From positions 36,580,001-36,644,000 of the forward strand of contig CM114271.1 of NCBI GenBank assembly GCA_050084515.1: 64,000 bases of DNA, in the 5' to 3' direction. Origin of the DNA: Blasia pusilla. Its lineage: Eukaryota. A program made the position numbers and the translations under genes. Below the pieces are notes generated by a model, which worked only from the letters and a program-made list of their open reading frames with translations, was not told the origin of the DNA and made no database searches. Each line of letters starts with the position of its first letter. The stretch's first letter is position 1. Positions 9,301 to 42,200 of the stretch are shown one piece after another.

Positions 9301-10346
9301 ACTTGGATCATTATTTGTGTTTTAACTTTCTTTGTCTTACATCTCCATTTGCTTGGCCCTCCTTTTGATCACCATGTCTATAAATCATGAAAAATTGTCA
9401 CAAGATGAAATTATGTGTTATTATGTCAATGGAAAAATAAAATCCTGAAATTAACGCCCGGCCACGGAATAAAAAATAAAAAAACCCTTACCGTGGTTTC
9501 GTAATTATAAATTCAGCATGGAGTAGGAAATGGAAAATCCACATCTTCCAAAAGTAAAAGGGCCTTCTCATCTCCATAGTCCTTATGTTTCAGCTCCATT
9601 CAATGGTGGGAAGTCAAGATGCTAGATTGCAAACATCAAAATTCAACTAACTCTTGGAAGATTACTTGTGTTTTGCCTTTATTCCTCTTGCATATCCATT
9701 TTGTTGGCCCTCCTCTTCATCACCAAGTCTCACCAAGTATGCCAAAAATCAATATACATTTCCTTGAGGGGCATCCCAACATCTAGAGCAAAGGGGAAAA
9801 AAGAAAAAACTCCAAATGACCACTCATACATGGATTTAAAAATCATAAATCCCAAAGGAGGTGTTTCATTTTTGGTAGGATAATGGGGAGCTAAATAGCA
9901 TATCAGAACTGTTCAAGTAGTGGAAATAATTAAGAGAAAAGTCAGTGCCACGTTTCATCACCATATTATGGTTCGATGAAAAGATAGCTACATGTTAATA
10001 TGACATACTACTCCCAACATTCGTACTCAAAGGCCTCCTCCCATTCTCTCCCCCCTCCCCTCACCAAGGGTTCTAAAAATCAAATTTTTTTTCCATAGGG
10101 GCACCCCAACACCAGGAAATAAGGGGGAAAGAAAAAACTCCGAATGACCACTCACATATGGATTTAAAAATTGTAAACGCCAAAGGAGGTGTTTCATTTT
10201 GGTAGGAGCATGGATGTTAAATAGAAGATCCAAACCGTTCAAGAAGTGCAAAAAATTAACCACGATTCTAATGCCAAGTTTGATCTCCATCTAATGGTTA
10301 GATGAAAAAATATCGCCATGTTAACATGAAAATGACACAACGGCTT
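6340..10346. repeat. Degenerate ~350-bp tandem array (about 11 units, two subtypes) inside the CACTA element
   Basis: Anchor AAATG(ACCACTCACAC/GACAC) at about 6877, 7228, 7581, 7930, 8399, 8750, 9099, 9814 and 10143. Subtype 1 carries AGATCTGAACC; subtype 2 (about 8150-9720) carries CCATCCAACGGTGGGAAGTCAAGATG. Boundaries are approximate. Confidence 0.85.
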
Positions 10347-10714
10347 TGTCATGACCGTACGGATTATGTCGTAGAGTATAGTGTGCTAGTAGAGGCCATA
10401 CCTTATGTAGGGCCGTAGTGTCCAGGTAGAGATGCGGTTTCATATATAAGATTGGGGGTTACTCAATTGAGGGTGACTTTTCCAGTAGGGTCTGCTCTTA
10501 GGTTGGAGGATATAGTGTGGAGTGCACTCAAATAACAATTAGTTCTTTGAGTTGAGCCTGTTGCGTTGAGAGTTAGCCTTGGTAGTGAGTAGAGCTCTTG
10601 GCTATGGTGGTTCCCGCAAGCTTCGACCTGGATTCTCCCATCGTGGAGTGGGTTTGGCTTGATTGTATGTGATTCTATACATGTTTTATGACATTAGATC
10701 TTTCACGGATTTCA
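10347..10714 (+). repeat. Terminal repeat A1 (368 bp) of copy 1, with TATA-like box at 10511
   Basis: Matches 19587-19954 with about 21 differences, mostly transitions. Also matches 48879-49246 and 57251-57616. Confidence 0.92.
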
Positions 10715-10726
10715 CTCAAAGAACTA
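10714..10726 (+). promoter_or_regulatory. Putative self-priming primer-binding site
   Basis: ACTCAAAGAACTA is the exact reverse complement of TAGTTCTTTGAGT at 10540-10552, about 30 nt downstream of TATAGT (10511). There is no TGG-starting tRNA PBS next to the repeat end. Confidence 0.7.
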
Positions 10727-13700
10727 GAGTAGATTGATGGTAGCTTCGATCGTGGATCAGTAGGATTTGGTTAGGATTGATTGTGTATCCAGCCGTGGAT
10801 GTTCGTGGCTTGTGGCCTATTTTGGAGATGGAAATCTGGTGCGTGGTTGTTTGGGAAAGAAGCGCCTTGCTGAGAGCTTTCCAATGCGCTTTAGATCGCC
10901 GGATTTCTTCAAGGGAGTTGGAAGTTATCAAGGATTGAAGATTCTGGTTCGTGTTCGACGGTTTGCTGATGTGGAGAACTTGGAGTGCGGAAGCTCTGTT
11001 GAAGTTCATCCAGATCGGGTGAGAGGTTCCTGTTGCTACCTGTATTGTGATCTCATGTGAAGCTATCTGCTTGAGTGTGTGGAGCGTTGCAGATTTATGT
11101 GTGCATGAATATGGGCGGAAGCGCTATCGGATTTGCGATTCTGGAGGTGTATGGACAACAAGTTTGTCTGATTTTTAGCTCGGAGTACAGATTCGGTTAT
11201 AGCTGATTTTTTGTGGAGAGATAGCTATGGTGGCCAATTGAATTTTGGTTGAAACAGATTCAATTTTGGTCAAGGATTTGTGGAGTAATTGCTGATCAAA
11301 ATTTTGCACACTAGCTCAAGGTCTGGCTATGATGGACAGCAGATCGGAGGGGCTGGTTGGTTGGAGGCTTCGAGGCAACTCGTGGTAGCTCAAGGCGCGT
11401 GGGCAAGTGGGCGTGAGAGGCGGAGTAAGGAGCAAGCAAGCAAGTTTGCTTGCTTGGGCATGAGGCAATTTTTGCAGGACTTGTGAGTTGAGTGTTACAT
11501 AATTGGTCACCCATCTTTGGGCTATTCTGCCTGGACGACGATTAACTGATGAGTTCTTAACTATGCTAGTGTACACACTGATGTACCTCATTTGGTGCTG
11601 TTTGGAGATGTGTTAGGCGCTTTATGCATCTCGGGTTTTTGGTTGATGGACCTCTAGCGCATAGTACGGTGTAGCCTCTCCATGCAGGTGATATTTTCAG
11701 GTGCTACGAGTGCGACTAGCACGTCATCGACCAGTGGCGGAGTAGCTATTGCGTTAGAATTGTGTGGTGGGTTCTATGGATTCAGGGGGCGCCATGTTTG
11801 GTGGATTGTGTTACCTTGATTTCCATTTACGATTGGAGGGTTGTCGTTGGACTTCTTGTGTTTGGATCCCCTCCATCGTTGCTTCTTGCTTGCGCGCCCA
11901 TTGTTAGGGTTGACGCTGATTTCCAGAGTAGTTTTACTCCTGTGTGCTACCGGTAGTGAGGCTAGAGTGATGACCAGTAGACCATGGGAGGCTTCTTGTG
12001 GTGATGACAGGTTAGGTTGCCTACACCCATAGCTAGTAGAGCTAGAATAGTACAGCGACATCGACGTCACTTGGTTACTTAGTGGTGGTAATTTGGTGGT
12101 GGTGCGGCATCGGCGTTGGTCATCACGGAGTTGTCTGGTGGTCTGGTTGGGGACCATGGTGTGGACAATGGTGGTTTTACATGGAGTGGATTGAGGTATC
12201 GGCTACCTTTTCCACTTCCGACGGTTGATGAAGAGGAGGACGAGGATGTTCCAAACACCGAGTCTTCTACGTTGTTATCGAGTGTTGCAACTCCATTGAT
12301 TTGGGACATGGACGGGATATATGGGGCCATGAAGGGCCCACGACGATACTCGGGTGTAGTGGGCACCATTGAGTTGGAGGACTTCATGCAGGAGTTTGAT
12401 ACGTGGTGTGATATGCAGATGTTGGGGAACGCCACGTTGTTTACACCCTTCTTGGCTTGGAAGGGGTTGTTTCAGCACTTGGAGGGACCACCCATGGATG
12501 ATTACCATGAGTTTAGGAAGGACCATGTTGCTGAGATTGAGGCGTGGAGACAATATTGGTCTCCAGGCTATGTGTCTATCATCCATGGTGGTATTGGTAG
12601 TAGTGATCCTACTATGCCAGCCAACCCGACGTTGAGTGGTACGAGTACGAGCCGGAGTGGGGGTACCAGTGGAGGTACCCATGGAGGTACCAGTGGGGGT
12701 ACTAGTGGAAGTACTAGTGCCCCACCATTGTTCATCCCGGTTGCAGAGTTCTTCAAGAGGTTGAAGAAGAACTATCAGGGATTGAAGATAGAGAAGTTGA
12801 GGAGTCTTCAGGAATTTGAGCAAAAGATTGGTGAGAGTCTTCGTGAGGCATACACTCGTATGCGACGCTTGATTTCAGTTACCCAAGGTGTGATTGAGGC
12901 TAAGGCAATCCAGTTTTGATATGGGATCTTGGACAGAGAGTTGCGCCGCAGGGTACGTGATGCTACTCTTATGAGTGATGATTCACCCACATTGACCCAT
13001 GTGTTTGCTCTATCTGAGAAGATTGAGCTTAACATGGTGGAGGAGAGAATGGCGACATCCGCATTCAGTAGGGATACAACTACTACTTCTCGTGTTCAGC
13101 AGTCCACCTCAAAGTCTCGTAGTAGTGGTGGTGGTAGTAGTAGTGGGAGTCATGGGGGGTACACACGACCTCAGTCACGTCCTAGAGGGACACTTGCCCA
13201 AAGACCATTGCCTTCATTTGCTGCCCCGCAGCAAGGACAGTCATGTTGGACATGTGGAGGTGATCATGTTAAGAGGTTTTGTCCCCAAGAGGATGGGAGA
13301 CGGACTTTGGAGGATGGTCCTCAGTCGGCCCCAACTTAGTGTGATCATTGCGGGAGACCTGGTCATCCTCAAGAGTGTTGCTTTGATCTTCATCCAGAGT
13401 TGAGATCAGGCCGTGGCCGCGGTGGAGTAGCTCCGAGAGGCCGAGGTGGTAGAGATGATAGGGGTGGTAGAAATGGATCAGTGGTTGGAGAGCCTATGGT
13501 GGCTACCCCTACCACTACAACAAAGTCAACTATGGCTGCCAGGATTGAGCAGTTGGAGCAGAAGTTGGCTACTATGGTTGGTATCTAGCATAGAGCAGAT
13601 TCGGGAGCAGGGGCTTCCACCTCTTATGGAGGGAATGATCTCTCTTATATGGCGAGTGCAGCACAGGTTGAGGCATCAGCTGCAGTTACGAGAGGAGCCA

Positions 13701-14984
13701 CTCGAGCGTCAGAGCCACGTGGTGCTATTGTGGAGTTGGACCCGCAAAGGGGTGAGGCTGGGAGGCAGGCTAGGCTTCCCCAATCATTCTTGTTGTCTGA
13801 GGTGCTTAGGACTCCATCCATGGTTCCTAGGCAGCCTGTTGAGCCTACAATGGGGACTGAGGCATCTACATCGCGTGTAGTAGACACGAATGCAGCATCC
13901 AATGCAGTATTGCGGATGGAAACTTCAGTGTTGGGATCCCCATTATTTTCGGCCACGGAGCTGATGGCTTTAGGAGTTGACTTAGCTCATGTATTTCAGC
14001 TAGCAGCCACGTTGTGTGAACGTGGGGGTGTTACTGCTACACGTGCTGAGGTGGATGAGGGTGTTGCGGTGGAGTGACCCTCTATGTCAGGTGTAGCATT
14101 GAGTACTAGTGCTACTTAGCAGGCAGCAACGGCGAAGATGGATGCATTACCAGCCCGGCCAGCCATTGATCGTGAGAGGCTTACACCTGGTGTATGTATG
14201 TTGGACAACCGGAGTGGGATATTCCGATTGGTGAGTCCTACAGGACAGGTGTATAGACTAGATAGAGTCTAGTGCCCAACTTTTGATGTTGGGAAAGGCG
14301 GCATGTATTGGTTTGGGTATTCGGAGGTCAGAGCTTGAGCCTTGCCCATTCCAGATTCAAACATCACTTGGAGGAGCCAATGATAGGTCTCAATTCATGA
14401 CACGGGAGAAGTTGTCTGTACACTTGAGACCAGATCATGCAACTGATAGCTCACGGTTGGGAGTACCTACAGTGGTCACATCAGCCGAGTCGTATGATGT
14501 ACTAGTTGGAGGAGCAGTATTATACCTGATGGGTTTTCAGATGGACTACTGGACCGAGACAACGTCATATAGACCTGGTTGGCAGTCCGGGGATGGACGT
14601 ATGAGCGAGGTTCATGTGAGATTTATTTATGGGGCTCGACCAAGAGGGTCTACCCCAAAGGTGTTAGCATCTGTGGCTGGTTTTAGTGGAGTAGTCATTT
14701 GGCCAGGAGACTTTTTGGAGGGTAATCTTTTTGCTATGGATTCTCGTGTGCATGAGGAGGTCCCTAGTTTTGCAGTTGTGGCATCCTCATCGTTGGATGT
14801 GCCACTTTGGAGTTCAGGCGGTGCACTACGGCAGGAGGCTGATCGCCTAGTGCAGGAGGCTTGGTGTGAGGCTCTTATACCTCACGAGGAAGAAGAGATC
14901 CCACAATGGACTCCTACTTCTGGTCTAGTTGGGTTATCCCCTTTGGATAGTACACCCATTGTATGACAGTATCCGCCGGAGGGC

Positions 14985-15910
14985 ATTTGTGTGTTAGATC
15001 TCTTTGGTGGGATTAGCACTGGTTTGCCTCCAGTGTTGCAGGCCGGTATTCTTGTGCGGAGATACGTGTATGTGGAGCGAGATGAGATGGCCTAGAGAGT
15101 CTCATCCCGACATATTGGTCAGTTGATGCGGAGATATCTTGAGATGTTGTCGCCATCAACTATTCGTGGGTACCAACGTGCTTTGTCGTCACACATTGCA
15201 TTGTTGGGGGCACAAGACCTTGAGAGGGTTGGTCGTGTGGATTTGGTGATTTCTGGATGGCCATGTCAGGGTCATACACGTGCTGGTCGTGGTGAGGGTT
15301 TACACGACCCTAGGTCTCGATTGTTTTGGGAGATGTTACGGGTGTTACGACATCTTCAGGTTCATCAAGCACGTGCTCCAGCTTACATTCTGGAGAATGT
15401 TCCATTGTTAGGTGACACTCGGACCCGGATGATGGCGAGTGTTTATGAGGTGCGGTCTTGGATTGGACCAGCGGTATTGTTGGATGTAGCGCGAGTTGGC
15501 TCGCGTGCACATTGTCCACGCTTGTGGTGGACAAACTTGTTGCCTACGGAGGTTCTATGTTGAGCATATGATGCAATACATCGGGATCCTTGCCTTACAG
15601 TGGATAATATCTTGGATACTGGGCGACTTTCTCAGGTGGTGAGGGTTATTGATTGGTCACCCATGGTAGTGGTGAACCATGTGGGCTAGTCTAGGATGGC
15701 ACTACCCATATTTGTGAGTTTTCCCTCGTCACATGCCTACAGGGAAGGTGGTCCCGAGCTTGTATGGGATTCTTATGTGTGACAATTGGTGGAACCTAAC
15801 ACTAATGAGAGAGAGCCTGCAATGGGATTTGCTACTCGTGTGACAGCGGTTGCTTCCATTTCTGAGGCTTCACGACGTCATGTGTTGGGTCAGGCCATGG
15901 ACCTGAATTT
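14985..15910 (+). pseudogene. DNMT3-like C5 cytosine methyltransferase domain in copy 1
   Basis: Motif I VLDLFGGIST, II YVERD, IV GWPCQG (15255-15272), V DPRSRLF, VI ILENV, VIII AHCPRLWWTNL, IX ExExAMGF, X VLGQAMD, in canonical I-X order. Confidence 0.9.
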
Positions 15911-18900
15911 TTTTACCTGGATTTTGAATCTTGGGATGGCCGAGCACCGTTGACTTCAGACTATGTCTATGGGTCTTCCACCCCTTGTGATGAGCTCGAT
16001 GGCTACCAGGATGGTAGAGACATCGGATGGGGGCGAGGAGAATAGTATTTTGCATCCTTGGAGTAAATGGGATGTAATCGCTGGGCATGTGGAGTTGGTT
16101 GCTCATGCTGGTGGAGGTGTTATTTGCTCAAATGATGGTGTAGCTAAGGGTGTACCATCTTGTGAGGGGGTTGCCTAGCAGCCAATGGCGTCGTCCTCTC
16201 CCTCTAGTGTGCCAGTGGAGGAGACTTGGGAGCCATTACTTGGGCCCAAGCTTAGGGGAGGTGAGAAATGACGCTTGACACAATTCCTACGTGCTTATAG
16301 GAGTTGTTTTGCCTTTAGCATGAAGGAGTTTGGTGCTTTGGTTGGACCCGGTATACGGATTGATTTGGCCAATCTTCCGTCGTCCCTACCGATATAGTGA
16401 TATGGAGAGGGACCTGATTCAGAGTAGGACGTTGGACCTTTTGGAGGGTGGATTAGTGGAGTTTTCGCATGGAGAGTATGCATCAGCCACTGTCATGCTT
16501 GCTAAAAAGGATGTGCATGGCAACTACACGGATAGGCGGATGTGTGGAGATTACCGTCTTATCAATCGGCAGCCCAAGGCCGATAGGTATGCTATGCCTA
16601 CACCTGAGGAGATCTTTGATGTGGTGGGACATGCAAAGATTTTCAGTACTTTGGATCTTCGGGTAGGATACCATCAGTTTCCGATTCGAGAGAGTGACAA
16701 GGCCAAGACAACATTTTGGGGTGCCAACTCTCATGGCAAGGATTGTTTGTACCAGTGGAAATTCTTACCCTTTGGGTTAAAGAATGCACCTGCTGAGTTT
16801 CAGAGAGTGATGGATAGGATCCTAGCAGGGTTGGATTTTGTTCGGTGTTACATTGATGATATCTTGGTGTTCAGTAATACGGTGGAGGAGCATCAGATAC
16901 ATTTGTAGATTGTGTTTGAGCGGTTGAAAGCTCATGGTCTACGTTTGCATCCCGGAAAGTGTAAGTTCTTCCATGAGGATGTTGAGTACTTGGGTCATGT
17001 GATCTATCCAGGTGGTTTGGGAGTTCAGCAAGCAAAGGTGGAGGCTATTGCACTTATTCCTCGTCCGGTAGATATGAGTAGAGTTCGGCCATTCATGGGA
17101 TTGGCGAACTGCTATCGGAGGTATGTGAAGGGATTTAGTGCTAGGGCAAAGCCTTTGAACTTATTTCTGAAATCAGATCACGAATGGAACTGGGGAGATG
17201 ATCAAGAGAGAGCTTTTTTGGAGCTCAAGGCCCAGTTGGTGACGGCGCCTATCTTGAGGAGACCTATCAGAGGGCACCCATTTCAGTTACACACTGATTG
17301 GAGTAGGTTGTGACTTGGAGCGGTGTTGACACAACATGATGATGAGCACATGGAGTTTGTGGTGGCCTATGCAAGTCGTACGAATAATGCAGGGGAGTCG
17401 CGCTATAGTTCATATGAGGGAGAGTGCTTGGCAGTTGTGTGGGCTGTGGCACACTTTAGGTGTTACTTGTTTGGCACACAATTTACCCTTGTTACTGATC
17501 ACCAGCCGCTCAAGTGGTTGATGGAGTCTGACAAGCTTACATGGAAGCTTGCATGGTGGGCTCTTATCTTACATGAGTATCACTTCCAGGTGGTACATAG
17601 ACCTAGAGTTTCCAACCTTGATGTTGATGGGTTGAGTAGGAACCCATGTACAAGCCATGAGGATGCAACTGGGGCTAGATGGCATGGCGAGGTTGATGAG
17701 GAGATGGTGTCAGTTTGGCATGCATCCGCCTTTTTATGTTGGTTAGGGGTGAACTCTAGTATGGAGGACCACATGACATCTTACTCTAGTCGGAGGATAG
17801 ATGGCCAACCTTCAGATCCTAAGGTTGGAGATGGTGGTACGGATTAGCATGATATTCATGATGATGCGTTGGTGTTGGAGTTCCTACGGACCAGTAGGGT
17901 GCCAGGCATAGTGAGTGCCAAGGAGCGAGATCGTGTTCTTCAACGTGCTAAGAGGTATCAATTGGAGAAACACATATTCTCCGTGTGTGGGAGGATGGTT
18001 GAGTACGAGTAGTGCCGCATTTGGCTCAGAGAGAGCCCATTGTGCGACATGCCCATGAGGAGTTGGGATATTTTGGGGTAAAGGATACGTATAGCTTACT
18101 CCTTGGTCAGTATTGGTGGCGTGGCATGCATACTCAGGTGCAGTAGTTGGTGTCACGTTGTATGGTTTGTGACCGTATGAGGGCATCATTCAATGTCCCT
18201 ACACCACTGTTACATCCCTTGCCTATTATGGGGTTGGATTACTGTTGGAGTGTGGACTTTGTGGGACCATTACCGTTGACTGTACGACATCATCAATATG
18301 TGTTGGTGATGGTGGAGGACTTCTCCAAGTGGATTGAGTTGGTGGCATTACCTGACAAGGCAAGTGACGGAACGGCGTATGCGTTTCTTGATAGAGTCCT
18401 TAGTCATTTTGGTGCACCAGCTGAAGTGCTGACCAACCAGGGTACAGAGTTTCAGGGTGAGTTTCAGGTCTTGTGTGACAAGGCGTTGATTGATCATCCG
18501 ACCACGTCTCAAGATCATCCAGAGGTGGATGATTTGGCGGAGCGTGTGGTTCAGACGGTGAAGAGGGCATTGGGCAAGTATGGCCTACAGAAGGGGCATC
18601 TTGGAGACTGGGATATTCAATTGCCATGGTTAGCCATGGGATATAGGTTCAGTCGCCAAGCATCCTTGGCTTCCTTCTCACCTTATTTTTTGTTATACGG
18701 CCGAGATCCAGACTTGCCAGCAGCAATTTGTGGAGAGTCTAGTGAGGTGGTGAACCTTGATGACCCTGAGATGTGGATGAGAGTGTGTTCTCAACGGGCA
18801 CAGCTCTTCCGGAGAGTTATGCCAATAGCCTTTGAGAATCTTGCCATTGCTCAACACAGGGATACGTTGCAGTATGCAACCATTCGGGGTGGAGATTATC

Positions 18901-19156
18901 GACCATCGATCCGTAGGTTCCATGTGGGGGGTTGGACTATGCTTATTTGCATTAGATTGCTCCGACAATGTTGGATGTGACGGCAAGCCGCACTATTTTA
19001 CGAGTGTGCGAGGTGTTAGCTTCTGGAGTTCTCATGTTGGAGAGTCGTGATGGAGTTATTTGGAAGGACCATGTGCGTAATTATGCCGCATGTCATCTTC
19101 CAAATGTGGATGATACTGTTGACCCAAGCTTAGCCATGATACGTGCTAGCTTGAGG

Positions 19157-19291
19157 TGCATGTTATGTGGGTCTGCTGGTAACGCAACCACTATGTTGAT
19201 GTGTGATCGGTGTTCTAGGGGTTGGCACATGATGTGTTTGACTGCACGTATGGATGTTGTTCCTACTGGAAGGTGGGTTTTTCCTCGATGT
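19157..19291 (+). other. C-terminal PHD finger after the integrase (copy 1)
   Basis: CMLC...CDRC...WHMMC...W-x-(C>F)-PRC. Copy 2 (56834-56968) has the intact C4HC3 pattern. Confidence 0.88.
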
Positions 19292-19460
19292 ACTTAGGAG
19301 AGGTAGATGACTTGATCTTTGCATGATATGGATTACAGATGTGCGACTAACGATGGGGCAACCTAGCACCCGACCTTCTGATTCGTGCACCCACGAAGGT
19401 GTATAGCATGTAGTAGATGTATAGGGCTACCTGGGAGTTAGAGGGACCTAACCGCCAGTT

Positions 19461-20060
19461 AGGGGGGCGAGTTGTGGTACTTTTTTCTTTGTGGATGCTC
19501 TCGTCTATGTTATGTATGTATGTATGTATGTGAGTATGGTATGTCAACGATGTATGTTGTATGACGATGTGGATTTGCACGACATCTGTCATGACCATAC
19601 GGATTATGTCGTAGAGTATAGTGTGCTAGTAGAGGCCATACCTTATGTAGGGCCGTAGTGTCTAGGTAGAGATGCGGTTTTATACATAGGGTTGGGGGTT
19701 ACTCAGTTGAGGATGACTTTTCTAGTAGGGCCCGCTCTTAGGTTGGAGGATATAGTGTGGAGTGCACTCAAAGAACAGTTAGTTCTTTGCGTTGAGCCTG
19801 TTGCGTTGGGAGTTAGCCTTGGTAGTGAGTAGAGCTCTTGGCTATGGTGGTTCCCGCAAGCTTCAACCTGGATTCTCCCATCGTGGAGTGGGTTTGGCTC
19901 GATTGTATGTGATTCTATACGTGTTTTATGACTCTAGGTCTTTCACGGATTTCAGTTGTGGTACACTTGTGTTTGTGGATGCTCTCATCTATGTTATGTA
20001 TGTATGTGAGTATGGTATGTGAGCGATGTATGTTGTATGACGATGTGGATTTGCACGGCA
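19461..20060 (+). repeat. PPT plus 3' repeat block of copy 1: B1 (19473-19584), A2 (19587-19954), B2 (19957-20060)
   Basis: AGGGGGGCGA-GT-TGTGGTAC...GCACGACA-TC-TGTCATGACC...GATTTCA-GT-TGTGGTAC...GCACGGCA. Confidence 0.92.
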
Positions 20061-20109
20061 GCTTTGAATAATCCCTACCAACATTAGAGCATTAAATCAT
20101 TTAAACATA

Positions 20110-20326: not shown

Positions 20327-21356
20327 GATCCTCCAAAATCCAAAATCCAAACTCCATCTATAACCTAAACCCATGATCGAAAGTGGATGCAACTGTGGAG
20401 TCGGAGCATTGAACGATGCTCGAACTCGAACTCGATCACACATCATACACTTGGCAACAAACTGCTGAACGTTAGTCTGCATGCCTGTCCACCAATACTA
20501 TATCTGGAGCAAGGTGTAAGTCCGCTTCACTCCAAAATGACCCAACTCCTTGTAGGCATGACGCACCAAATGTGCTCTCTTCGAAGGACGAGGCACCACA
20601 CACACTCTACCATCCTCACAAACTCGCAATACATGTGTCCCCTCCCACCGGAACTGTCTGGCTTGTTGTAGGATCCCGCTCTCTAGCACCCACTGTACTC
20701 GTGACGATGCCTATACGCAGGTACTCCAAGACCACTCCATTGTCGTGAATGTCTCAGCCACCTGTCGTCTCCTCATCGACCTCTGGATCTAAGGACTCTC
20801 CATCAGACCTTGCCATCAAAGTCTCAGCAATCTGGCTCTCCATAGCCAAAAAGCCCAAATAGGCTGAGTGCCATCATGGCACCAACTCCTCATCACTCTC
20901 ACCATGCCAACAAGCTCCAGTCGTATCTCGTTGACTCGAGCATGGATTACAGCTCAAACCATCTGCATCTTGGTTGAGCGTCGTAGGTCTATGCACCACC
21001 TAGAAGTCATACTCTTGCAACAAAGAGCCCACCTTGCAAGCTTCCTTGTAAGCTTGTGGGACTCCATCAACCACTTAAGTGGCTGATGATCAGTAATGAT
21101 GGTAAAGGGATTGCCGAATAAATAACACCTAAAATATATGACAACCCACACCGCAACCAAGCACTCACCCTCATACAAGCTATGCTTTGCCTCTAGAGCA
21201 TTGTTCGAGTGACTAGCGTAAGCCATCATGAACTCTCTACCATCATCATCATGCTGGGTGAGCACGGCTCCAAGCCCCAACATGCTCCAATCGGTATGCA
21301 ACTGGAAAGGACGCCCCCTGATCAAGCTCCTCAATAAGGGCATGGACGTCAATATG

Positions 21357-22583: not shown

Positions 22584-23849
22584 ATATGTCCTTGAGCAAC
22601 TAAAATTCTCTCTCATGCTCATCCTCCCAGTGCCACTCGTGATCCACCTTGGTCAGCAAGGTTAGCGGTTTCGCAATCAAATTGAAACCCTTGACGTACC
22701 GTCGATAGAAGTTTGCCAATCCCATGAATGCACGAACTTGACTCACATCTGTAGGGCGTGGAATATGTGAAATAGCCTCTACCTTTGTCTGCTACACACC
22801 AACGCACCTTGGGTATATCCTATGATCCAAGTTCTCAATCTGGTCGTAGAAGAACTTGCACTTGCTTGGATGTAGCTTCAGCCCATGTAACTGAAATCCT
22901 CAAAACACCTCCTCTAGATGTCGCTCATGCTCCTCAATCGTGGCGCTAAAGACTACAATGTCATCAATATAACACCTAGCAAAATCTAGACTTGCCAAGA
23001 TCCTATCCATGACCCTTTGAAACTCAGCTGGGGCATTCTTTAACCCGAATGGTAAGAATTGCCACTAGTACAAACAATCCTTCCCGAAGGATTGATGCCC
23101 CAAAATGTTGTCTTGTGCCTGTCCTCCAATCTGATAAGCAGCTAATGATATTCGGTTCAAAGATCTAACAAATTGAAGTCCTTTACATGCCCAATAGCAT
23201 CAAAGATCTCCTCAGGAGTGGGCATGGCATACCTATCAGACTTAATAGGTCAATAATCTCCACACATCCGCCTATCCGTCCAGTTGCCATGCACATCCTT
23301 CTTGGGGGGCATGACAGTGGCAGATGCAAACTCTCCATGTGACATCTCCACTAGTCGTGCTCCAACCAAGTCCTGGATCCTACTCTGAATCAGAACCCTC
23401 TTCATGTCACTATACCTATAGAATCATCGAAAGATCGGGGTGTCACTCGACAACTCAATGCGGATGCTTGGATCCTTCAGCGTACCCAAATTCTGCATGC
23501 TAAATGCAAAAAAACTCCTATAACTCCTAAGGAACTAGTGTATTTTGCGCTGCTCTCCTCTTGTCAACTTAGGGCCCATATCTGGCTCCCAAGTCTCCAT
23601 CGTGACTACGATAGGACTCTTCAGTGTAGGTGTAGGTGGTTACTATGGTGCAACCCCATCTCGGACAACATAACTCTTATCTCCACTTGCAGTACCCGAA
23701 ACCACGCTCGATGTTGTGGCTACCATGTCCTGGCGTACCTGCAAAACATCCCAAGAAGTCCAAGGGTGCACCAACGCAACAACTATGATCTGACGCATCC
23801 TCAAATGACGCTGATTAGCTACGCCTAAGCTAAAAATCCATGTCAAGTA

Positions 23850-24765
23850 GTTTAGGTCCATTTCCTGACCCAAGTCATGACATCGTGATGCCTCTGATAG
23901 TGACGGTATTGTTGTCACTCATGTGGGGAATCCCATCGCTTGGTCTCGCTCATCGGCGTTGGGCTCCACCAACCTCTGTACCTGGTCATCCCAAACCAAA
24001 CTAAGTCCGGCCTCCTTGAATGGATAGGAAACAAGAAAACTCATCAATGTGGGAAAGGTTGCACGTGGCATGCCAATCCTATTGATCATAGTCAATCATC
24101 ATGCCTTAGTGCGTGTGAGCGAAGACTTGGATCCAAAATAGAATCCACCAACAAATCGGAGGGGTGCTCCACTCTCACATAAGCCCTTTGCAAAACCTCA
24201 TGTGGGACCAAGTTGGTCCACCAAAGATATGGGGGGTGTGCTCTAGAACCTACACTCGCCGCATCCAAAAACACTGCTAGGCCAATCCACGCCCGCACCT
24301 GATGTGCACTCGTTACAACGCGGGACCTTGAACCCCCAAAATCGGCACATTCTCACGAATGTATGCTGAAGAACAAGAGTGATGCTCTTGCAAGTGTCGC
24401 AAAATCTGCATCATCTCCCAAAACAATTTGGAACGAGTGTCACCTAACCCGCTACCTCGTCTAGCACTCGATTGGCCCTCACACCGCCAACCAACAATGA
24501 CAAAATCTATGGCCCCTACCCGCTCCAAGTCCTGCGCCCCCAGCAATGAAATATCCTATGGTAGGGAACTCTAGTATCCCTCGATAGCAGACGTAGACAA
24601 CAAGTCGAAAAAACGGAGGTGTAATTGCACAGCATGGTGAAGTGAAGCACGTCTCGCAACATCATCAATCTCCACATATAGGTATTGCTGCACGCGTACT
24701 CTTGTATGAAAAAAACAGCTAACCGGATGTTGATCCCTGCAAAGAGATCCAACACCCGAATACCC
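23850..24765 (-). pseudogene. DNMT3-like methyltransferase domain (subfamily 2)
   Basis: IRVLDLFAGI, YVEID, VGWRCEG (motif IV with P>R), RSKLFWEM, IRENV, AHPPYLWWTNL, LGQEMDL. Confidence 0.85.
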
Positions 24766-27565
24766 TCCTCTTGGATACACCACACAATTAGGGTGGTGTC
24801 CAAAGGGGTCATAGCAGCACTCCTAGCTACCTAGGGTTCCTCTGACTCGTCACACTCTGGTGCAAACATCTCGCTCCATGCGGTCTGCACATGCTCAATG
24901 GCTAAGCGTCGAAGCTCCTCAATCGAGCCCCAAAGTGGCACCTCTCCTCCACTACCTGATCGGCTAGCATGACACTCCTCTCCATAGAAATATAAGAAAC
25001 GGGAGTATCCTTTGCATGGAAATGTCCCTCAATCAAATCACTAGGCCAAGTGATTGCACTGCTAAATGCTGCTAAGATCGCCATCTCTCCTAGACGTCGC
25101 TCGATCACTGCACTTGTGAGTCGAACGAGTAATGAGCTCCTCGTCTGTAGGACGCTGACTCCTCCAAGTAATCCAGGGGAAATCCCATCGGGTATAACAC
25201 TGCTCCACCAACCAAGACGTCGTAGGGCTCTGCATCAGTCACTATCGTCTTGGCTCGCACCACGGACTCACCTATAGGATGTCCCGAGCGAATCCTCACC
25301 ACAACCTCCTATCGGGGGATATATTGGGTGATACTCGCTCCACCCAAGGATGGCTATATCCGGAATGGACAATGCTCCACATCGACTCTTGTCAAACCCA
25401 ATCCTCTGAATGACGCTTTCCCCAACATCAAGGGTTGCGCTCTTGAATCCAACAAGATGCGCTGCGGACTAAAAGCTCTACCTTCTAGACTCACCAACTG
25501 GAAGACCTCTCACCGGTTATTCAACAACACAACACCAGGAGAAGCCATGGCATGCTCTATCGGGAGTCTAGCCAGAATCTCCGCCATCCTAGCACCCACA
25601 GCCTGCCATGAATCTGACGTGGAAGGTCTTAGCATCCCCTCCAAGGACAGGTCCATCACCTCCTCTACAATCACCCCTAAACGTGATGCAGGAACTCCAA
25701 CTCTACGCTCACACAGTGTAGCGGCCAGACGGAAAACCTCGGAGGGTGTACCTCCCAATGTCATAACATTGCAAGCAAAAAATAAAGAAGCGCGGACACA
25801 ACGGTGGCCGCCTCCAACAACGTGCTTGACACGTGATCCTCTTGAGCATCAGCAATAGGAGTCTTTGCACTCGCTTCTCCCATTGCCCTTCGTGCCTGCA
25901 CACCAACAACATCACCAACTCTCCGGGAACTATGATTAGGATCCATTGATGGGGTCCTCGTCGCCTCGGACAACGTGAAGGACTGAGGAAGCTTGGTTTG
26001 TTTCTTGGCTTCTCCTCGTTGTGGATCCAACTCTACGACTACTCCACACGTAACAACTGCGGAAGCCTCCATATGGGCAACCCCGCACATCCAACCACGA
26101 TCCTCCATATCTCTACCGGCTCCATAAAACGTCGATGCCACCGACGAATAACCTCAATGCCATAGCGGCAATTTGATGTTGTAGTTGCTATATCTGAACA
26201 GCCATCCCAGCCTCACGCTCAATGTCTCCCTTGACGCATCTAGGTGGTGGGACTCTACCTCCTCCTCCGACAGCTCCACCACCCTGTCGGGAAACTCTAG
26301 CTCCTTGTCTCCCAACGGAACCACCTGGTGCACGTCCTCTAGGCCCACCCAGACTAGCAACTCCCTATAGTGCCCTCTCTGGCCCTCAATCAGGACGTAA
26401 CTCAGGGTGTAAACTGAAACACCTAGCGCATGTGTGACCATCCCTCTGACAATTTTCATAATAATAACCTCTTGGTGCAGCACCATATCCTCCTCCATGC
26501 TGAGACACACGTCCAAGACCTTGACAAATGCAATCACGCTGATGATGGGCTCCACCACATGACCAACAAGTAATCGTAGGCGGTTGCTGTTGAGCCGCAT
26601 ATAAAGGCATAGGTCTCTGTGGCACGGCCTTTGGGTATCCTCCCTGCGCTTGCGGTGCCACAGTCGACCTATCTTGGAGTCCACATTGCTGCACTGGTGG
26701 TGCAGGCAATCGTGACTGCTCTTGCCCATAATCCATGGTGGCTACGCTCTCCTCCGCCATGTTGTGCTCAATGTTCTTGGCGGTTCTTAAAATATCTCTC
26801 AACGTAGGGGAGGTGTTCATAAGAAGCACCCCTCCTGCACCCGTGTCCGTAGGGTTCAGTCCAGCATCGCGTACCATGACTGGATAGCCTGAGCCTCTAT
26901 CACCCCCTGAGTGACGTTGATCAACCGGTGTAAGCAAGTGTAAGCCTCACGCAAACTCTCAACCGGGCGCCTTTGGAAGTCATGGATGCTCCGCAACTTC
27001 TCCGTCCGTACCCCTTGGTAGCTTGCCCTCAACTTAGCAAAGAACTCAACCACTGGGTTGAACTTGGGACAAACTTGACTAGACGGTGCATCTGCTCCAA
27101 TGCGAGGCACCCCTTCTAAAACATCACTAGTAGAAGAAGAAGTAGCCTCTCTTGATTCCTCTTCCTTATCTGAGAACGGCTCTGTCCACGACACATAGTG
27201 TGGGTCATAGTAGAGTCGCCATGCCTCAATCTCCTGGGCATATCTATGGGAGAACTCATGGTAATTGTCCATGGGTGCCCCCTCTAAATGCTGGAACATA
27301 TCATTCCATGCTGTAAACGGGTTGAACTCTCTGGAGTTCCTAGCCCGTTGTGAGTCACACCAACTCCTAAACTTGGCAATGAAGTCGTGTAGCTCTATAG
27401 TGCCTACAGCACCCGAAAACCTAGGCGATCCTCTACCCCGGTCATCCATCTCGTACGCCCAACTAGTAGGACCACTCAATATGTACGGTGGATCACTAAC
27501 ACATTCCTCTATATGCTCCCCCTTGTCTGAAGAAGACACAGAAGGAGATCGAGGTGATCTCTCAC

Positions 27566-39200: not shown

Positions 39201-42200
39201 GGCGGTCGTTCTTCCTAGACGTGGTGGTAGAGGACCACCACCAACTAGAGGAGATGAAGCAAGAGCACCAGAGCCGTCACTTCTCTCACGCATCGATTAG
39301 TTGGAGTAGAGGATTGCTTCTATGATGATGATGCAGCTCAGGGAAGGCACGGAGCCGCGAGCAGCTAGTGTGGCTCCAGCTTCTACCTCTTACCTTGACG
39401 CGAGTGAGGATCTCGCTAGTATGGGCTTTATGTGTAGTGCAACTCAAGTTGAGGCGGCTGCAGTGGTGACTCGGGGTGCTGCAAGAGACACCGAGCCATC
39501 GAGAGGTGGAGTTGAGATTGACCCACCAGAGGGGACCGATGGGCGGCAAGCTAGGGTTCCACAGTCATTCACATTGTCGGAGGCACTACACACACCATCG
39601 ATGGTGCCTCGACGACCAGCGGTGCCTACAGCTCATGCAGGTATGTCGACGTCACAAGGAGTTGGAGTGACAACTCCTCTGCCGGCTCGACTGGAGTCCG
39701 TGTCGACCATAGTGTTGGAGGTGGCCACCAGAGTACGTGAGTAAGACTCCGCTATTTTCCGCCATAGAATTGGCGACATTGGGAGTTGGACCAACTGAGG
39801 TGTTCCGGCTGACCGCCACGTTGTTTGAGCATGGAGAGATGACTTCTTCTTGTTCAGAGGTAGTTGAGGAAGGGGTGGACTTGCCCTCAGAGCCGGTGCT
39901 CAGGACGTCCTCCACAGAGTCATGGCATGCGACGACGGCAAAGTTGGTAGATATGCCAGCTCGACCGGCCATAGAGCGAGCAGTGGTGACACTTGGAGTA
40001 GTGTTATTGGATTACCGAGCTAGAGTATTTCGCTTGGTTAGTCTGACGGGGACAGTATACCACCCGCAGCGCGTCCTACTTGATTCGGGAGCGCAGCCCT
40101 TGATGTTAGGGAAGGCGGCGTGTTTAGTGTTGGGGTTATGGAAAGCTGACATTGAGACTTATCCCTTCTAGATACAGACCTTGATTGGAGATGTCACCCA
40201 CGTAGTGTATGACTCGATAGGAGATAGTTGTTAGAGTCCAACTAGAGCATGCAACGGATAGTGCTATGGTGCGCACACGTGCGATTACAATACTAGCTGA
40301 GCCATACGATGTGTTGGTGGGTAGTACAGTATTATATCCCCTAGGATTCATCCTTGACTTCTGGGAGGAGACCGTTGCTTATCGGCCAGGGTTGCTGTCA
40401 GGTGACGAACGGATGAGTCAGTTACCTGTGCAATTTGCGGGACCAGGTGGTCGAGCACGAGATGAGTTTGTGACCACATTGGCAGCTTTCACAAGTAGTG
40501 TTAGCTGGCCAGGAGAGTTGTTGGAGGGGAACGCACATGCGGAGGATGTCCCAGTAGCAGATAGTCCCACGGAGAGATAGGCCATGGTGGCTGTCTCTTC
40601 CTATGTTGGCGAGACCTCTTCACCATTGTGGGGTATGACTCGAGAGCTACAGAGGAGTGCCGACGACCTCGTGAGGCACGCGTGGAGTCATGCCTTTATC
40701 CCGGAGCAACGAGAGTTAGTTGGCGATCGGGCTCCTGGGGTGGAGACGTTGACCCCACTGGATACCACAGCCATTGTGTGGCAGTGTCTTGAGGAGGGTG
40801 TTAGGGTGTTAGATCTCTTTGGGGGGATTAGCATCGGATTGGCTGTAGTATTGCAGGCAGGCATACGGGTGCATCAGTACCTTTATGTGGAGAGAGATGA
40901 GACTGCGTGGCGAGTATCATTACTTCACGTAGCGAGATTGGTCCAGAGGTATCCTGAGTTGTTGTTGGTATCTGCAATACGGGGATATCATCATACACTA
41001 CCTGCCGACATCTCTTTGGTGGGGGCGCAGGATCTGGATAGAGTTGGCACCATTCATTTGGTGATTGCTGGAGGGCCATGTTAGGGTCATTCATCAGTTG
41101 GCCGAGGGTTTGGATTGCAGGATCCAAGGTCATGGATGTTTTGGGAGATGCTGCGAGTAGTACGACACTTGCAAGAGAGTCAGAGATGCTCTCCGGCCTA
41201 CATTTTGGAGAACGTGCCATTGTTCGGAGACACTCATGCATGTGTGATGACGAGTGTGCATCAGATGAGGTCTTGGTTGGGACTTGCTGTGTTGTTAGAT
41301 GCAACGAGAGTTGGATCACGCGCCCATCGTCCATGATTGTGGTGGACAAACTTGATATCATCAGAGGTACTGAGTCGAGCATACGATGGAGTCCAGAGAG
41401 CACCACATCTCACAGTGGATGCTATTTTGGGCTCAGGGCATCGATCTTAGATGGTGATGCGGGATGATAGACCACCATTGGCGATGGCCAATAGGGTGGG
41501 GGAGTTGAGGACATCCTTACCTACGCTGCTAAGCTTCCCAGCATCCCATGCCTTTTGTCAGGGAGGGCCATGCATGATTTGGGATGAGGTGAACCGAGCA
41601 TTGGAGGAGCCTATAGCAGATGAGCGCGAGCGCACTATGGGGTTTGCTACAGGTACTACAGTGGTGCCAAGGATGACTGAGGCATCTCGGAGACAGGTGT
41701 TGGGCTAGGCAATGAACCTCAAGTGTCTCACATGGATAGTTAGCCTAGGTATGGCTAAGCAAAGATGGATGCGAGTCAGAGTGGAGTGACTATTGCAAAG
41801 GTGGCTAGGGTTGCTACATAGCAACCAAAGCCGGAGGTTGCGTCCTCTCCAAGCGAGGTCACGATGGAGACTTGGGAGCCTATGATAGGTCTCAAGTTGA
41901 TAGGAGGAGAGCGACGGCAAGTTCATAGGTTTTTGAGAGGGCATGTCAGTTGTTTTTCCTTCAATATGAGAGACTTGGGTATGCTGAAGGTCCCGGGATA
42001 TGGATTGACTTGGCTAGTGATACGCCGATCTTTCTTCGCCGATCTTTCTTCTTGGAGGGAGCCTTGATTCAGAGCAGGAGTCACGACTTGTTGGAGGCAC
42101 GACTTGTGGAGTTATCATATGGGGAGTATGCATTTTCCACAATCATGCCAGCGAAGAAGGATGTGTATGGCAATTGGACGGATAGGCAGATGTGTGGAGA

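What the first reader, a model, noticed from the sequence alone, without database searches (positions are those of the whole stretch)
14985..15910. DNMT3-like cytosine methyltransferase embedded in-frame between protease and RT of a Gypsy polyprotein
Seen: C5-MTase motifs I, II, IV (PCQ), V, VI (ENV), VIII, IX and X in the same frame as PR and RT once indels are corrected. The domain sits at the same position in four copies from three diverged subfamilies (14985-15910, 23850-24765, 40800-41720, partial 53297-53990), so it is a long-retained part of the family rather than a one-off capture. The motif order is unpermuted (DNMT3-like, not DRM). Established: DNMT-bearing retrotransposons are reported in dinoflagellates and charophyte algae, and moss DNMT3 acts as a de novo methyltransferase. 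Inference: the enzyme would be packaged in the particle and could methylate the element's own cDNA or insertion site. Occurrence in a land-plant lineage would extend the known range.
Basis: partly seen in the sequence, partly recalled or inferred. Interest (0 to 1): 0.88.

Follow-up and report, generated by a model that had tools for sequence, protein, structure and literature searches.

The report
Methyltransferase-carrying Gypsy retrotransposon relics, bryophyte-type
Four decayed copies of a plant jumping gene each carry a DNA-methylating enzyme domain like the host's own DNMT3, a kind of element described so far only from an alga but which public protein databases show is also present in liverworts and peat mosses.

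Summary
All four copies (A 14967-15953, B 23808-24773 minus strand, C 40782-41765, D 53286-54032) hit Pfam PF00145 above its cut-off, and the domain lies between protease and RT each time. It is colinear with DNMT3A and not permuted like DRM. A close intact relative folds as DNMT3A/B (TM 0.80-0.85). Between the three subfamilies dN/dS is 0.15-0.17, the same as for RT-RNase H.

All four window copies are dead: they carry stops, B has frameshifts, D has a deletion. The family itself is transcribed in the host and highly repeated.

The kind is known: KnitGypsy-Dnmt3 of Klebsormidium (de Mendoza 2018), which has the same odd A-coding-B-A-B repeat plan that I find here. Relatives at 72-79% identity are annotated as hypothetical proteins in Marchantia, Calypogeia, Riccia and Sphagnum. 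I found no paper reporting this.

New here:
- A UAG conserved in all four copies, and as the end of eight database proteins, separates gag-PR-MT from RT-RH-INT-PHD. Its context is the tobamovirus-type leaky one (UAG CAR YYA).
- The integrase ends in a PHD finger.
- A sister architecture (RT-RH-MT-INT-PHD) occurs in green algae.

Self-methylation of the element's cDNA remains inference.

The parts
10343..10346 (+). Target-site duplication GCTT, 5' copy (copy A)
   Evidence: Read. The same GCTT follows the element at 20061-20064. A DNA contig of run X1 joins 10343 to 20062, i.e. an empty site with a single GCTT (table 5).
10347..10714 (+). Repeat A1 of copy A (LTR-like, TG...CA)
   Evidence: 94.3% identical to 19587-19954 over 368 bases. 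Alignment; repeat family D1.
12092..14261 (+). gag region of copy A, with zinc-knuckle-like CX2CX4HX4C near 13343-13384; broken by stops and one frame change near 14250
   Evidence: ORFs. Weak PF03732 Retrotrans_gag hit, 17.4 bits, below cut-off. Colinear with the N-terminal part of Marchantia protein P0291. The zinc knuckle is read by eye and has no Pfam hit.
14262..14966 (+). Protease region of copy A, same frame as MT; ends in a TGA at 14964-14966
   Evidence: No Pfam hit. Homologous to the LLDSGAQPLMLGK region of P0291 and P0295. Copy C keeps LDSGAQ, while A reads IESSAQ.
14967..15953 (+). DNMT3-like C5 cytosine methyltransferase domain of copy A: 329 codons, one frame, five in-frame stops; PCQ and ENV intact
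   Evidence: PF00145 39.4 bits. Best PDB sequence hit DNMT3A, E 3.4e-9, colinear. Stops at codons 43, 199, 241, 272 and 329.
15954..16175 (+). Tail of the first reading frame after MT (HPWSxWD motif shared with relatives)
   Evidence: Translations compared.
16176..16184 (+). Conserved in-frame stop with its context, TAG CAG CCA (fits UAG CAR YYA)
   Evidence: The homologous sites are D 54257-54265, C 41819-41827 and B about 23637-23645 (minus strand). Eight of 22 database relatives end here.
16185..17313 (+). RT region of copy A (one-base frame change near 16370)
   Evidence: PF00078 70.7 bits. Frames read.
17314..17847 (+). RNase H region of copy A
   Evidence: PF17917 100.1 bits.
18147..18980 (+). 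Integrase core (DDE, rve) of copy A
   Evidence: PF00665 47.6 bits.
19157..19291 (+). PHD finger at the C-terminus of the integrase reading frame
   Evidence: PF00628 33.5 bits. Best PDB matches are MLL3, CHD4, DPF2/3, ATXR5 and KDM5 PHD fingers. The same C-terminal PHD is found in 15 or more full-length relatives.
19470..19586 (+). Repeat B1 of copy A, preceded by a purine-rich AGGGGGGCGAG at 19462-19472
   Evidence: Repeat families D3 and D4. Sequence read.
19587..19954 (+). Repeat A2 of copy A
19955..20060 (+). Repeat B2 of copy A; it ends in CA and is followed by the TSD GCTT (20061-20064)
   Evidence: Empty-site joints in DNA run X1 show that B2 lies inside the insertion.
23808..24773 (-). 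MT domain of copy B (element about 20342-27434, minus strand): three frames, catalytic PCQ read as RCE
   Evidence: tblastn pieces. PF00145 25.6 bits.
40782..41765 (+). MT domain of copy C (element about 38067-44960): one frame, four stops, one of them at the Q of PCQ; the N-terminus lies in one open frame with the end of PR (40581-41084)
   Evidence: PF00145 30.9 bits.
53286..54032 (+). Partial MT domain of copy D (element 48879-57709; A1 48879-49246; B-A-B at 57142-57709): motif I deleted, PCQ and ENV intact, four stops
   Evidence: PF00145 36.0 bits.

Best explanation
**What it is.** The window holds four dead copies, from three subfamilies, of a Ty3/Gypsy-type retrotransposon lineage that carries a DNMT3-type cytosine-5 DNA methyltransferase. 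It is the same kind of element as KnitGypsy-Dnmt3 of Klebsormidium, here in a host that is most likely a liverwort.

**Shown.**
- The domain order is gag - protease - MT - [UAG] - RT - RNase H - integrase - PHD finger.
- MT is colinear with DNMT3A and shares its fold.
- MT evolved under purifying selection as strong as that on RT-RNase H while the subfamilies diverged.
- The catalytic Cys-Gln (motif IV) and Glu (motif VI) are invariant among 31 relatives.
- The element sits as A - coding - B - A - B, with TG..CA ends and a 4-bp target duplication.
- Related copies are transcribed in the host, on the strand that is sense if the library is of the usual stranded type.
- Open gag-PR-MT frames of about 1250-1280 aa exist in Marchantia.

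**Inferred.**
- The main translation product is Gag-PR-MT, so MT is made in step with Gag.
- RT-RH-INT-PHD is made by occasional readthrough of the conserved UAG, whose context is UAG CAR YYA.
- MT is an active de novo methyltransferase that marks the element's own newly made DNA, or DNA at or near the integration site.
- The PHD finger on the integrase steers integration by reading the histone H3 tail.

In this window the copies then decayed, mostly by C-to-T changes at CG and CHG sites. That is the pattern expected of host-methylated silent DNA.
For: **Domain identity.**
- PF00145 is above its cut-off in 4 of 4 copies.
- The PDB sequence search gives DNMT3A 3.4e-9, 3B 2.7e-7 and 3C 2.7e-6, colinear over query residues 7-191. 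DRM matches only through its permuted C-terminal half (2.3e-4 to 8e-3). No DNMT1 appears at E<0.01.
- The AlphaFold model of the intact relative P0286 (79% identical to copy A over 199 aa) has pLDDT 90.4. All Foldseek PDB matches shown (ranks 1-50) are DNMT3A/B/C, with TM normalised to the target 0.80-0.85 for the isolated catalytic-domain chains.

**Selection.** MT dN/dS is 0.174 for A-C (bootstrap 0.10-0.26), 0.157 for A-B and 0.147 for C-B. RT-RH gives 0.12-0.16. A-D gives 0.97, i.e. neutral decay of two recent relics. In an alignment of 31 relatives at 33-76% identity, C140, Q141 and E183 are invariant.

**UAG.** The stop is at the homologous codon in 4 of 4 copies, with the RT N-terminus following in the same frame. 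The context is TAG CAG CCA in A and D, TAG CAA CCA in C and TAG TAA CCA in B. Eight of 22 database relatives from Marchantia, Calypogeia and metagenomes end at that residue. CAR YYA after UAG is the tobamovirus readthrough signal (PMC2754532, passages).

**Repeat plan and insertion limits.**

**Same plan in Klebsormidium.** Stated in the legends of Figs 1 and 4 of PMC5890265.

**Transcription.** 3350, 3125 and 3580 RNA reads were laid from three runs. All 30 bins are covered and reads are almost all on one strand. Only 10, 4 and 8 reads are 99% or more alike, so the RNA comes from sister copies.

**Decay.** Between A and D, transitions hit 16% of CG, 18% of CHG and 4.6% of CHH cytosines.
Against: - No enzymatic activity is shown for any Gypsy-borne DNMT3. 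The Klebsormidium domain gave no methylation in yeast, which the authors call inconclusive (PMC5890265).
- Nothing here bears on packaging or on what DNA is methylated.
- Readthrough is inferred from conservation and context only. Across the 64 kb window the nine-base motif itself is not rarer than chance: 7 matches against 3.25 expected, and 7 of 100 shuffles reach 7.
- Synonymous divergence between subfamilies is near saturation (pS 0.66-0.70), so dN/dS values are approximate. The uncorrected pN/pS is 0.34-0.35.
- All four window copies are broken, so this locus itself does nothing.
- The strand of the RNA rests on the usual library convention.
- More distant type-1 relatives (e.g. P0031) have one open frame with no stop between MT and RT, so the UAG is a feature of the bryophyte clade only.
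Confidence: 0.6

Rival explanations
1. The MT domain is kept for a role other than DNA self-methylation. It could methylate RNA, bind nucleic acid in the particle, or interfere with the host's own de novo methylation machinery, for instance by titrating partners of host DNMT3 or by mis-directing methylation elsewhere.
For: Purifying selection shows that the domain is useful but not what it does. The Klebsormidium domain was inactive on DNA in yeast, and de Mendoza et al. themselves raise RNA methylation for the LINE-borne DNMT (PMC5890265). If MT is the C-terminus of a Gag-PR-MT product it would be abundant and close to the RNA.
Against: The catalytic Cys-Gln and Glu-Asn-Val motifs and the AdoMet loop are conserved. 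The fold, including the region after motif VIII, superposes on DNA-bound DNMT3A/B. That fits a DNA enzyme better than a pure binder. There is no evidence either way on the substrate.
Confidence: 0.2
2. The stop after MT is not read through. RT-RH-INT-PHD is expressed some other way, by a spliced or subgenomic message or by reinitiation. Alternatively the family depends on RT and integrase supplied in trans.
For: Readthrough was not measured. Gene models in Marchantia bridge the stop with predicted introns (P0295, P0304). An RNA joint 17812 to 18820 shows that variant transcripts exist.
Against: ORF2 follows in the same frame in 4 of 4 copies from three subfamilies. The six bases after UAG fit CAR YYA in A, C and D, and B differs from it only by T for C at the first of the six. 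No RNA joint spanning the stop region was listed among the best-supported joints (29 further joints were not shown).
Confidence: 0.25
3. The methyltransferase similarity is a chance or artefactual feature of decayed sequence, or a one-off capture of a host DNMT3 fragment by a single dead copy.
For: All copies in the window are riddled with stops. Pfam matches cover only motifs IV-VI.
Against: The domain is in four copies from three subfamilies at the same place. In the 1.84-billion-protein library, 2671 proteins match at E<=0.001, many of them full polyproteins. Open frames exist in Marchantia. dN/dS is 0.15-0.17.
Confidence: 0.01

Closest known systems
KnitGypsy-Dnmt3 of Klebsormidium nitens (de Mendoza et al. 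2018, Nat Commun 9:1341; PMC5890265, abstract, section 9 and passages read)
   Same: Both have an unpermuted DNMT3-type domain inside the coding region of an LTR Gypsy element. Both have the unusual A-coding-B-A-B repeat plan, which the paper's legends state for that element. Ka/Ks is below 0.2 there and 0.15-0.17 here. Both hosts are streptophytes with CG, CHG and CHH methylation on silent copies.
   Different: The host here is a land plant, bryophyte-type; the paper speaks of an acquisition 'in the K. nitens lineage'. I could not see their figure or supplements, so the position of the DNMT within their Pol is unknown to me, as is the presence of a stop after it or of a PHD finger. No Klebsormidium sequence was in hand, so direct relatedness was not tested.
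SymbioDIRS-Dnmt3 of Symbiodinium (same paper)
   Same: It has a DNMT3-type domain in a retrotransposon polyprotein and the A-coding-B-A-B repeats. Two domain orders coexist there, as the two orders (MT-RT and RH-MT) do among the green-lineage relatives here. Its DNMT methylates CG de novo in yeast.
   Different: It is a DIRS element with a tyrosine recombinase. The elements here have a DDE integrase (rve), TG..CA ends and a target-site duplication.
Host de novo methyltransferases DNMT3A/3B (solved structures, e.g. 6w89, 6f57, 6kdl)
   Same: Best sequence and fold matches. The motif order I-IV-VI-VIII-IX-X is the same, and the TM-score is 0.80-0.85 over the catalytic domain.
   Different: Identity is only 20-23%. 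There is no PWWP or ADD domain next to the catalytic domain (Pfam finds none in P0291 or the window frames). It is fused to Gag-protease instead. A PHD finger sits far away, on the integrase.
Chromoviruses (Ty3/Gypsy elements with a chromodomain at the integrase C-terminus)
   Same: A chromatin-reader module is appended to the integrase C-terminus. A chromovirus of this kind lies in the same window (Chromo PF00385 44.2 bits at 32390-33316).
   Different: Its nearest solved relatives are, as I recall, readers of the unmodified H3 tail. The element also carries a methylation writer.
Leaky UAG of tobamovirus replicase (UAG CAR YYA; PMC2754532, passages) and gag-pol stop readthrough of gammaretroviruses (recalled)
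   Same: An in-frame UAG is followed by CAR YYA, separating an abundant upstream product from a polymerase made by readthrough.
   Different: Here protease and the methyltransferase lie upstream of the stop, together with Gag. Readthrough was not measured.

Membership tests
C5 cytosine DNA methyltransferase (Pfam PF00145) | Profile match above the curated cut-off (22 bits) | tested here: met
   A 39.4, D 36.0, C 30.9, B 25.6 bits.
C5 cytosine DNA methyltransferase (Pfam PF00145) | Catalytic Pro-Cys (motif IV), Glu-Asn-Val (motif VI) and the AdoMet loop FxGxG (motif I) | tested here: met
   A has DLFGGIS, GWPCQG and ILENV. D has PCQ and ENV but motif I is deleted. C reads PC-stop. B reads RCE. 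C140, Q141 and E183 are invariant in 31 relatives.
DNMT3 subfamily | Unpermuted motif order, closest to DNMT3 rather than DRM, DNMT1/MET1, CMT or DNMT2 | tested here: met
   The PDB sequence search gives DNMT3A/B/C at 3e-9 to 3e-6, colinear. DRM matches at 2e-4 to 8e-3, only through its permuted half. DNMT2 is at 8.5e-3 and DNMT1 is not listed. The Foldseek matches shown (ranks 1-50) are all DNMT3A/B/C.
DNMT3 subfamily | Placement inside the DNMT3 clade in a phylogeny with plant DNMT3, DRM, CMT and MET1 | not tested
   No reference sequences of these families could be obtained. The tree holds only transposon-type relatives.
DNMT3 subfamily | Host-type accessory domains (PWWP, ADD) N-terminal of the catalytic domain | tested here: not met
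   Pfam finds none in the window frames or in the 1278-aa Marchantia protein P0291. Gag and protease lie upstream instead.
Gypsy-DNMT3 retrotransposons (KnitGypsy-Dnmt3 type) | DNMT3-type domain within the gag-pol coding region of a Gypsy-type element | tested here: met
Gypsy-DNMT3 retrotransposons (KnitGypsy-Dnmt3 type) | Terminal repeats arranged A-coding-B-A-B | tested here: met
   Copy A (10347-10714; 19470-20060) and copy D (48879-49246; 57142-57709) both show it. The insertion limits were confirmed by empty-site contigs. No repeats were detected for B and C.
Gypsy-DNMT3 retrotransposons (KnitGypsy-Dnmt3 type) | Purifying selection on the DNMT domain (paper: Ka/Ks < 0.2) | tested here: met
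   0.147-0.174 between subfamilies. Synonymous sites are near saturation.
Gypsy-DNMT3 retrotransposons (KnitGypsy-Dnmt3 type) | Sequence kinship with the Klebsormidium copies (common descent rather than a separate capture) | not tested
   No Klebsormidium protein was identified among the named hits.
Ty3/Gypsy LTR retrotransposon | Order PR-RT-RNase H-integrase with a DDE (rve) integrase | tested here: met
   PF00078, PF17917/PF17919 and PF00665, in that order. The same order holds in the full-length relative P0031.
Ty3/Gypsy LTR retrotransposon | Two identical LTRs ending TG..CA, a PBS next to the 5' LTR, a PPT next to the 3' LTR, and a 4-6 bp target duplication | tested here: inconclusive
   The TG..CA ends and the 4-bp GCTT duplication are met. 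The right end, however, is repeat B, not A. A purine tract lies before B1, not before A2. No clear PBS abuts A1.
Type I leaky stop (UAG CAR YYA) | UAG followed by CAR YYA, with the downstream frame open and homologous to polymerase | tested here: met
   A and D have TAG CAG CCA and C has TAG CAA CCA. B has TAG TAA CCA.
Type I leaky stop (UAG CAR YYA) | Measured readthrough | not testable with these tools
   Needs a reporter assay or protein data.

The most novel reading that the evidence does not exclude
Bryophytes, including the genetic model Marchantia polymorpha, host a live lineage of Gypsy elements that make an abundant Gag-protease-DNMT3 fusion. They make their RT-integrase-PHD only by leaky-UAG readthrough. 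The element would then write 5mC on its own new DNA or at its landing site while its PHD finger reads the local H3 tail, giving a self-contained reader-writer kit. The lineage, with its sister architecture RT-RH-MT-INT-PHD in chlorophytes, would date back to early green plants rather than to a capture in Klebsormidium.
Probability: 0.3. Interest if true: 0.8.

Novelty: new member of a known kind. Interest (0 to 1): 0.6.

Why it matters
Retrotransposons that carry the enzyme class their hosts use to silence them are known from dinoflagellates and one charophyte alga. What the enzyme does for the element is an open question, and the only Gypsy-borne example tested gave no activity.

These results show the same kind of element in land plants, with open reading frames in Marchantia polymorpha and transcripts in the window's host. 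That moves the question into organisms with transformation, mutants of the host methyltransferases and good methylomes.

The conserved leaky-type UAG predicts that the methyltransferase is made in step with Gag rather than in step with RT. The PHD finger on the integrase predicts chromatin-guided integration. Both predictions are directly testable.

The spread of two domain orders from chlorophytes to bryophytes argues against a single late capture in the Klebsormidium lineage.

Tried and rejected
- **Whole genome.** None is held for this window, so copy number and a search for open copies in the host could not be done.
- **Sequencing runs.** No listed holder is on record as RNA in the index. 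The RNA evidence comes only from laying three raw-read runs of the same species label.
- **Read laying variant table.** It was cut after position 13599, so I could not read which letters sister copies carry at the stops inside MT. One loose end at 15557 in run X22 reads a sense codon where copy A has TGA.
- **RNA joints.** The joints 19469 to 19954 and 20062 to 10347 look like circle or tandem junctions. They are equally explained by reads from sister copies fitting B2 and A1 better than B1 and A2. I draw nothing from them.
- **Homodimer prediction.** A job on the MT domain (two copies of P0286 41-368) gave no support. This is no evidence either way.
- **Earlier scan notes.** Nothing for this genome or this sequence.
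- **Rfam.** Only one tRNA in the window.
- **Pfam.** No protease, gag (above cut-off), zinc-knuckle or integrase zinc-finger family in the decayed frames or in P0291.
- **Repeats.** No terminal repeats were found for copies B and C.
- **Host.** It could not be named; run labels are coded.
- **Literature.** Searches for the bryophyte case found nothing (one search failed on a syntax error and was re-worded). Subscription journals and the supplements of PMC5890265 were not visible and may hold relevant lists.
- **A one-off capture or chance similarity.** Rejected; see rival explanations.
Full report
**What is in the sequence.**

The region 10347-20064 is one retroelement on the + strand (copy A). 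Reading stop to stop gives a run of pieces. Pfam names them as:
- a weak gag;
- C-5 cytosine DNA methylase (PF00145, 39.4 bits against a cut-off of 22);
- RT (PF00078);
- RNase H (PF17917/PF17919);
- integrase core (PF00665);
- a PHD finger (PF00628, 33.5 bits) at the very end.

A self-comparison of the window and a tblastn map with copy A's pieces find three more copies:
- B on the minus strand, about 20342-27434;
- C, about 38067-44960;
- D, 48879-57709.

A and D are about 92% identical in DNA. A, B and C are 67-71% identical to one another. In every copy the methyltransferase (MT) lies between the protease region and RT. Every copy passes the Pfam cut-off: C 30.9, B 25.6 and D 36.0 bits.

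**State of the copies.**
- In A the protease region (14262-14966) and the whole MT (14967-15953) are one frame. The 329 MT codons hold five stops and no indel.
- C is likewise one frame of 328 codons with four stops. One of them replaces the Gln of the catalytic Pro-Cys-Gln. Its MT start lies in one open frame with the end of the protease region.
- D has lost about 400 bases, including motif I, but keeps PCQ and ENV.
- B is spread over three frames and reads RCE for PCQ.

So all four are relics. Between A and D there are 347 transitions and 165 transversions. The transitions hit 16% of CG, 18% of CHG and 4.6% of CHH cytosines. Where copy A differs from the RNA of sister copies, A-for-G and T-for-C in copy A outnumber the reverse (table 1). 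This is what decay of host-methylated DNA looks like.

**What kind of methyltransferase.**

Against all PDB sequences the read-through MT of copy A is closest to DNMT3A (E 3.4e-9), then DNMT3B (2.7e-7) and DNMT3C (2.7e-6). It aligns colinearly from motif I to motif VIII. DRM enzymes match only weakly (2.3e-4 to 8e-3), through their C-terminal half, as expected of a permuted relative. DNMT1 is not listed at E below 0.01.

I folded an intact natural relative rather than a repaired copy. P0286 is 368 aa and 79% identical to copy A over 199 residues. With an alignment of 31 relatives it gives a model of mean pLDDT 90.4. All the Foldseek matches shown in the PDB (ranks 1-50) are DNMT3A, 3B or 3C, with TM-scores of 0.80-0.85 normalised to the isolated catalytic-domain targets. 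In the 31-sequence alignment the catalytic Cys and Gln of motif IV and the Glu of motif VI are invariant.

I could not bring plant DNMT3, DRM, CMT or MET1 sequences into the session. A family tree against them was therefore not made.

**Selection.**

I used codon-by-codon comparison of the copies, with stop codons left out (Nei-Gojobori).

| Pair | MT dN/dS | Note |
|---|---|---|
| A-C | 0.174 | bootstrap 0.10-0.26 |
| A-B | 0.157 | |
| C-B | 0.147 | |
| same pairs, RT-RNase H | 0.12-0.16 | control |
| A-D | 0.97 | bootstrap 0.57-1.76; the two diverged as dead DNA |

Synonymous differences between subfamilies are near saturation (pS 0.66-0.70), so the ratios are rough. Even the uncorrected pN/pS is only 0.34-0.35.

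**A conserved stop after MT.**

About 75 codons after MT, copy A has TAG at 16176-16178. The same frame then continues into the N-terminal part of the RT region.
- The homologous codon is TAG in D (54257) and C (41819).
- In B it is TAG, followed by TAA where the others have CAR.
- In all four copies the RT N-terminus follows in the same frame.

I inspected 22 database proteins of the same clade:
- eight end at this residue (three from Marchantia polymorpha, one from Calypogeia fissa, four from metagenome contigs);
- two end two residues short;
- two run on into RT through a gene-model junction that omits the stop;
- ten end earlier.

The six bases after the stop are CAG CCA or CAA CCA. These fit CAR YYA, the context that makes the tobamovirus UAG leaky (PMC2754532, passages). 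The motif alone is not significant in 64 kb: 7 matches against 3.25 expected. The argument rests on position and conservation.

I read this as follows. The first frame is gag-PR-MT. RT-RH-INT-PHD is made by readthrough. More distant relatives such as P0031 have one frame without this stop.

**Ends of the element.**

Copy A is built A1 (10347-10714) - coding - B1 (19470-19586) - A2 (19587-19954) - B2 (19955-20060). Copy D has the same plan.

DNA contigs of run X1 join 10343 to 20062. This is an empty site, so B2 belongs to the insertion. The ends are TG and CA, and GCTT is duplicated on both sides.

This A-coding-B-A-B plan is what de Mendoza et al. describe for DIRS elements and, by their Fig. 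4c legend, for KnitGypsy-Dnmt3 (PMC5890265). How a DDE-integrase element comes to this plan I cannot explain. A purine tract lies before B1, not before A2, and no clear primer-binding site abuts A1.

**Relatives and host.**

A HMMER search of 1.84 billion representative proteins finds 2671 matches at E up to 0.001 and 437 up to 1e-10.

Of 202 relatives in hand, a domain scan gave:
- 19 with MT before RT (the window's order);
- 34 with RT-RH-MT-INT, mostly with a C-terminal PHD;
- 6 with MT-INT only;
- the rest fragments.

On a tree of 84 MT domains, 43 rows have a known order, and a single change explains them.

The window's copies fall in an 18-row clade (SH-aLRT 100) with all the Marchantia and Calypogeia rows. 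A and D sit beside unnamed metagenome rows, not inside the Marchantia polymorpha group.

Named holders:

| Order | Named taxa |
|---|---|
| MT before RT, or MT-only fragments of the window's clade (window type) | Marchantia polymorpha, M. paleacea, Riccia sorocarpa, Calypogeia fissa, Sphagnum troendelagicum, S. fallax, S. tenellum |
| MT before RT, deeper branches | four Closterium strains |
| RT-RH-MT-INT | Scenedesmus, Haematococcus |

An intact CACTA transposase frame at 584-2065 has its best named match in Riccia (49%). The host is thus most likely a liverwort. It could not be named, because no genome is held and the run labels are coded.

**Expression.**

Three RNA runs of the host's species label cover the whole element on one strand, which is sense under the usual stranded-library convention. 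Nearly all reads are 90-99% alike, and only 10, 4 and 8 reads are 99% or more alike. The RNA therefore comes from sister copies, not from this relic. The DNA run shows very high summed depth, which means many copies.

**Comparison with what is known.**

The kind is known from de Mendoza et al. 2018 (abstract, section 9 and passages read). Later papers refer to it as Gypsy-DNMT3 of streptophytes (PMC12344493 and the 2026 preprint 10.64898/2026.05.21.726589, passages).

I found no paper that reports it from a bryophyte or names the Marchantia genes. The library lacks most subscription journals, and supplements were closed.

New relative to what I could read:
- the land-plant hosts;
- the conserved leaky-type UAG, with MT on the Gag side;
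- the PHD finger on the integrase;
- the two domain orders across green plants.

Function remains inferred. The only Gypsy-borne DNMT tested gave no methylation in yeast, which the authors call inconclusive.

**Verdict.**

This is a new member of a known kind, with several testable new features. The locus itself is inert.

Noticed in passing
window 584-2065 (-): An uninterrupted 494-aa frame of a CACTA/En-Spm-type transposase (precomputed Pfam PF02992 in its relatives). Its best named match is Riccia sorocarpa at 49% identity. It is the only long open TE frame in the window.
   Followed up: partly
window about 27844-34429 (+): A separate Gypsy element of chromovirus type, without MT. RT is at 30636-30989 (PF00078 75.1 bits). 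The integrase tail has SH3_Tf2-1 and a chromodomain at 32390-33316 (PF00385 44.2 bits). Near-identical flanking repeats lie at 27844-28131 and 34142-34429.
   Followed up: partly
window 17812-18820: RNA reads in all three runs (15, 21 and 30 reads) join 17812 to 18820 with nine other letters between. A sister copy lacking about 1 kb of the integrase region is therefore transcribed.
   Followed up: no
window 44873-45307 (-): A further fragment of the same family's protease region (47% identical to copy A's over 146 aa) lies on the opposite strand right after copy C. This would be a fifth, partial copy.
   Followed up: no
window 10347-20064 and 48879-57709: A purine tract lies before repeat B1 rather than before A2, and no primer-binding site directly follows A1. 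The priming sites expected for an LTR element do not fit the A-coding-B-A-B plan.
   Followed up: partly
relatives P0016, P0058, P0132 and others (not in the window): A sister architecture, RT-RH-MT-INT-PHD, occurs in 34 of 202 relatives. Named holders are the chlorophytes Scenedesmus sp. PABB004 and Haematococcus lacustris.
   Followed up: partly
runs X10, X12-X14: Air metagenome runs hold 11-15% of the element's sampled words.
   Followed up: no
window 4246-4317 (+): One tRNA match just above Rfam's cut-off (32.3 against 29 bits), inside AT-rich repeat-like sequence.
   Followed up: no
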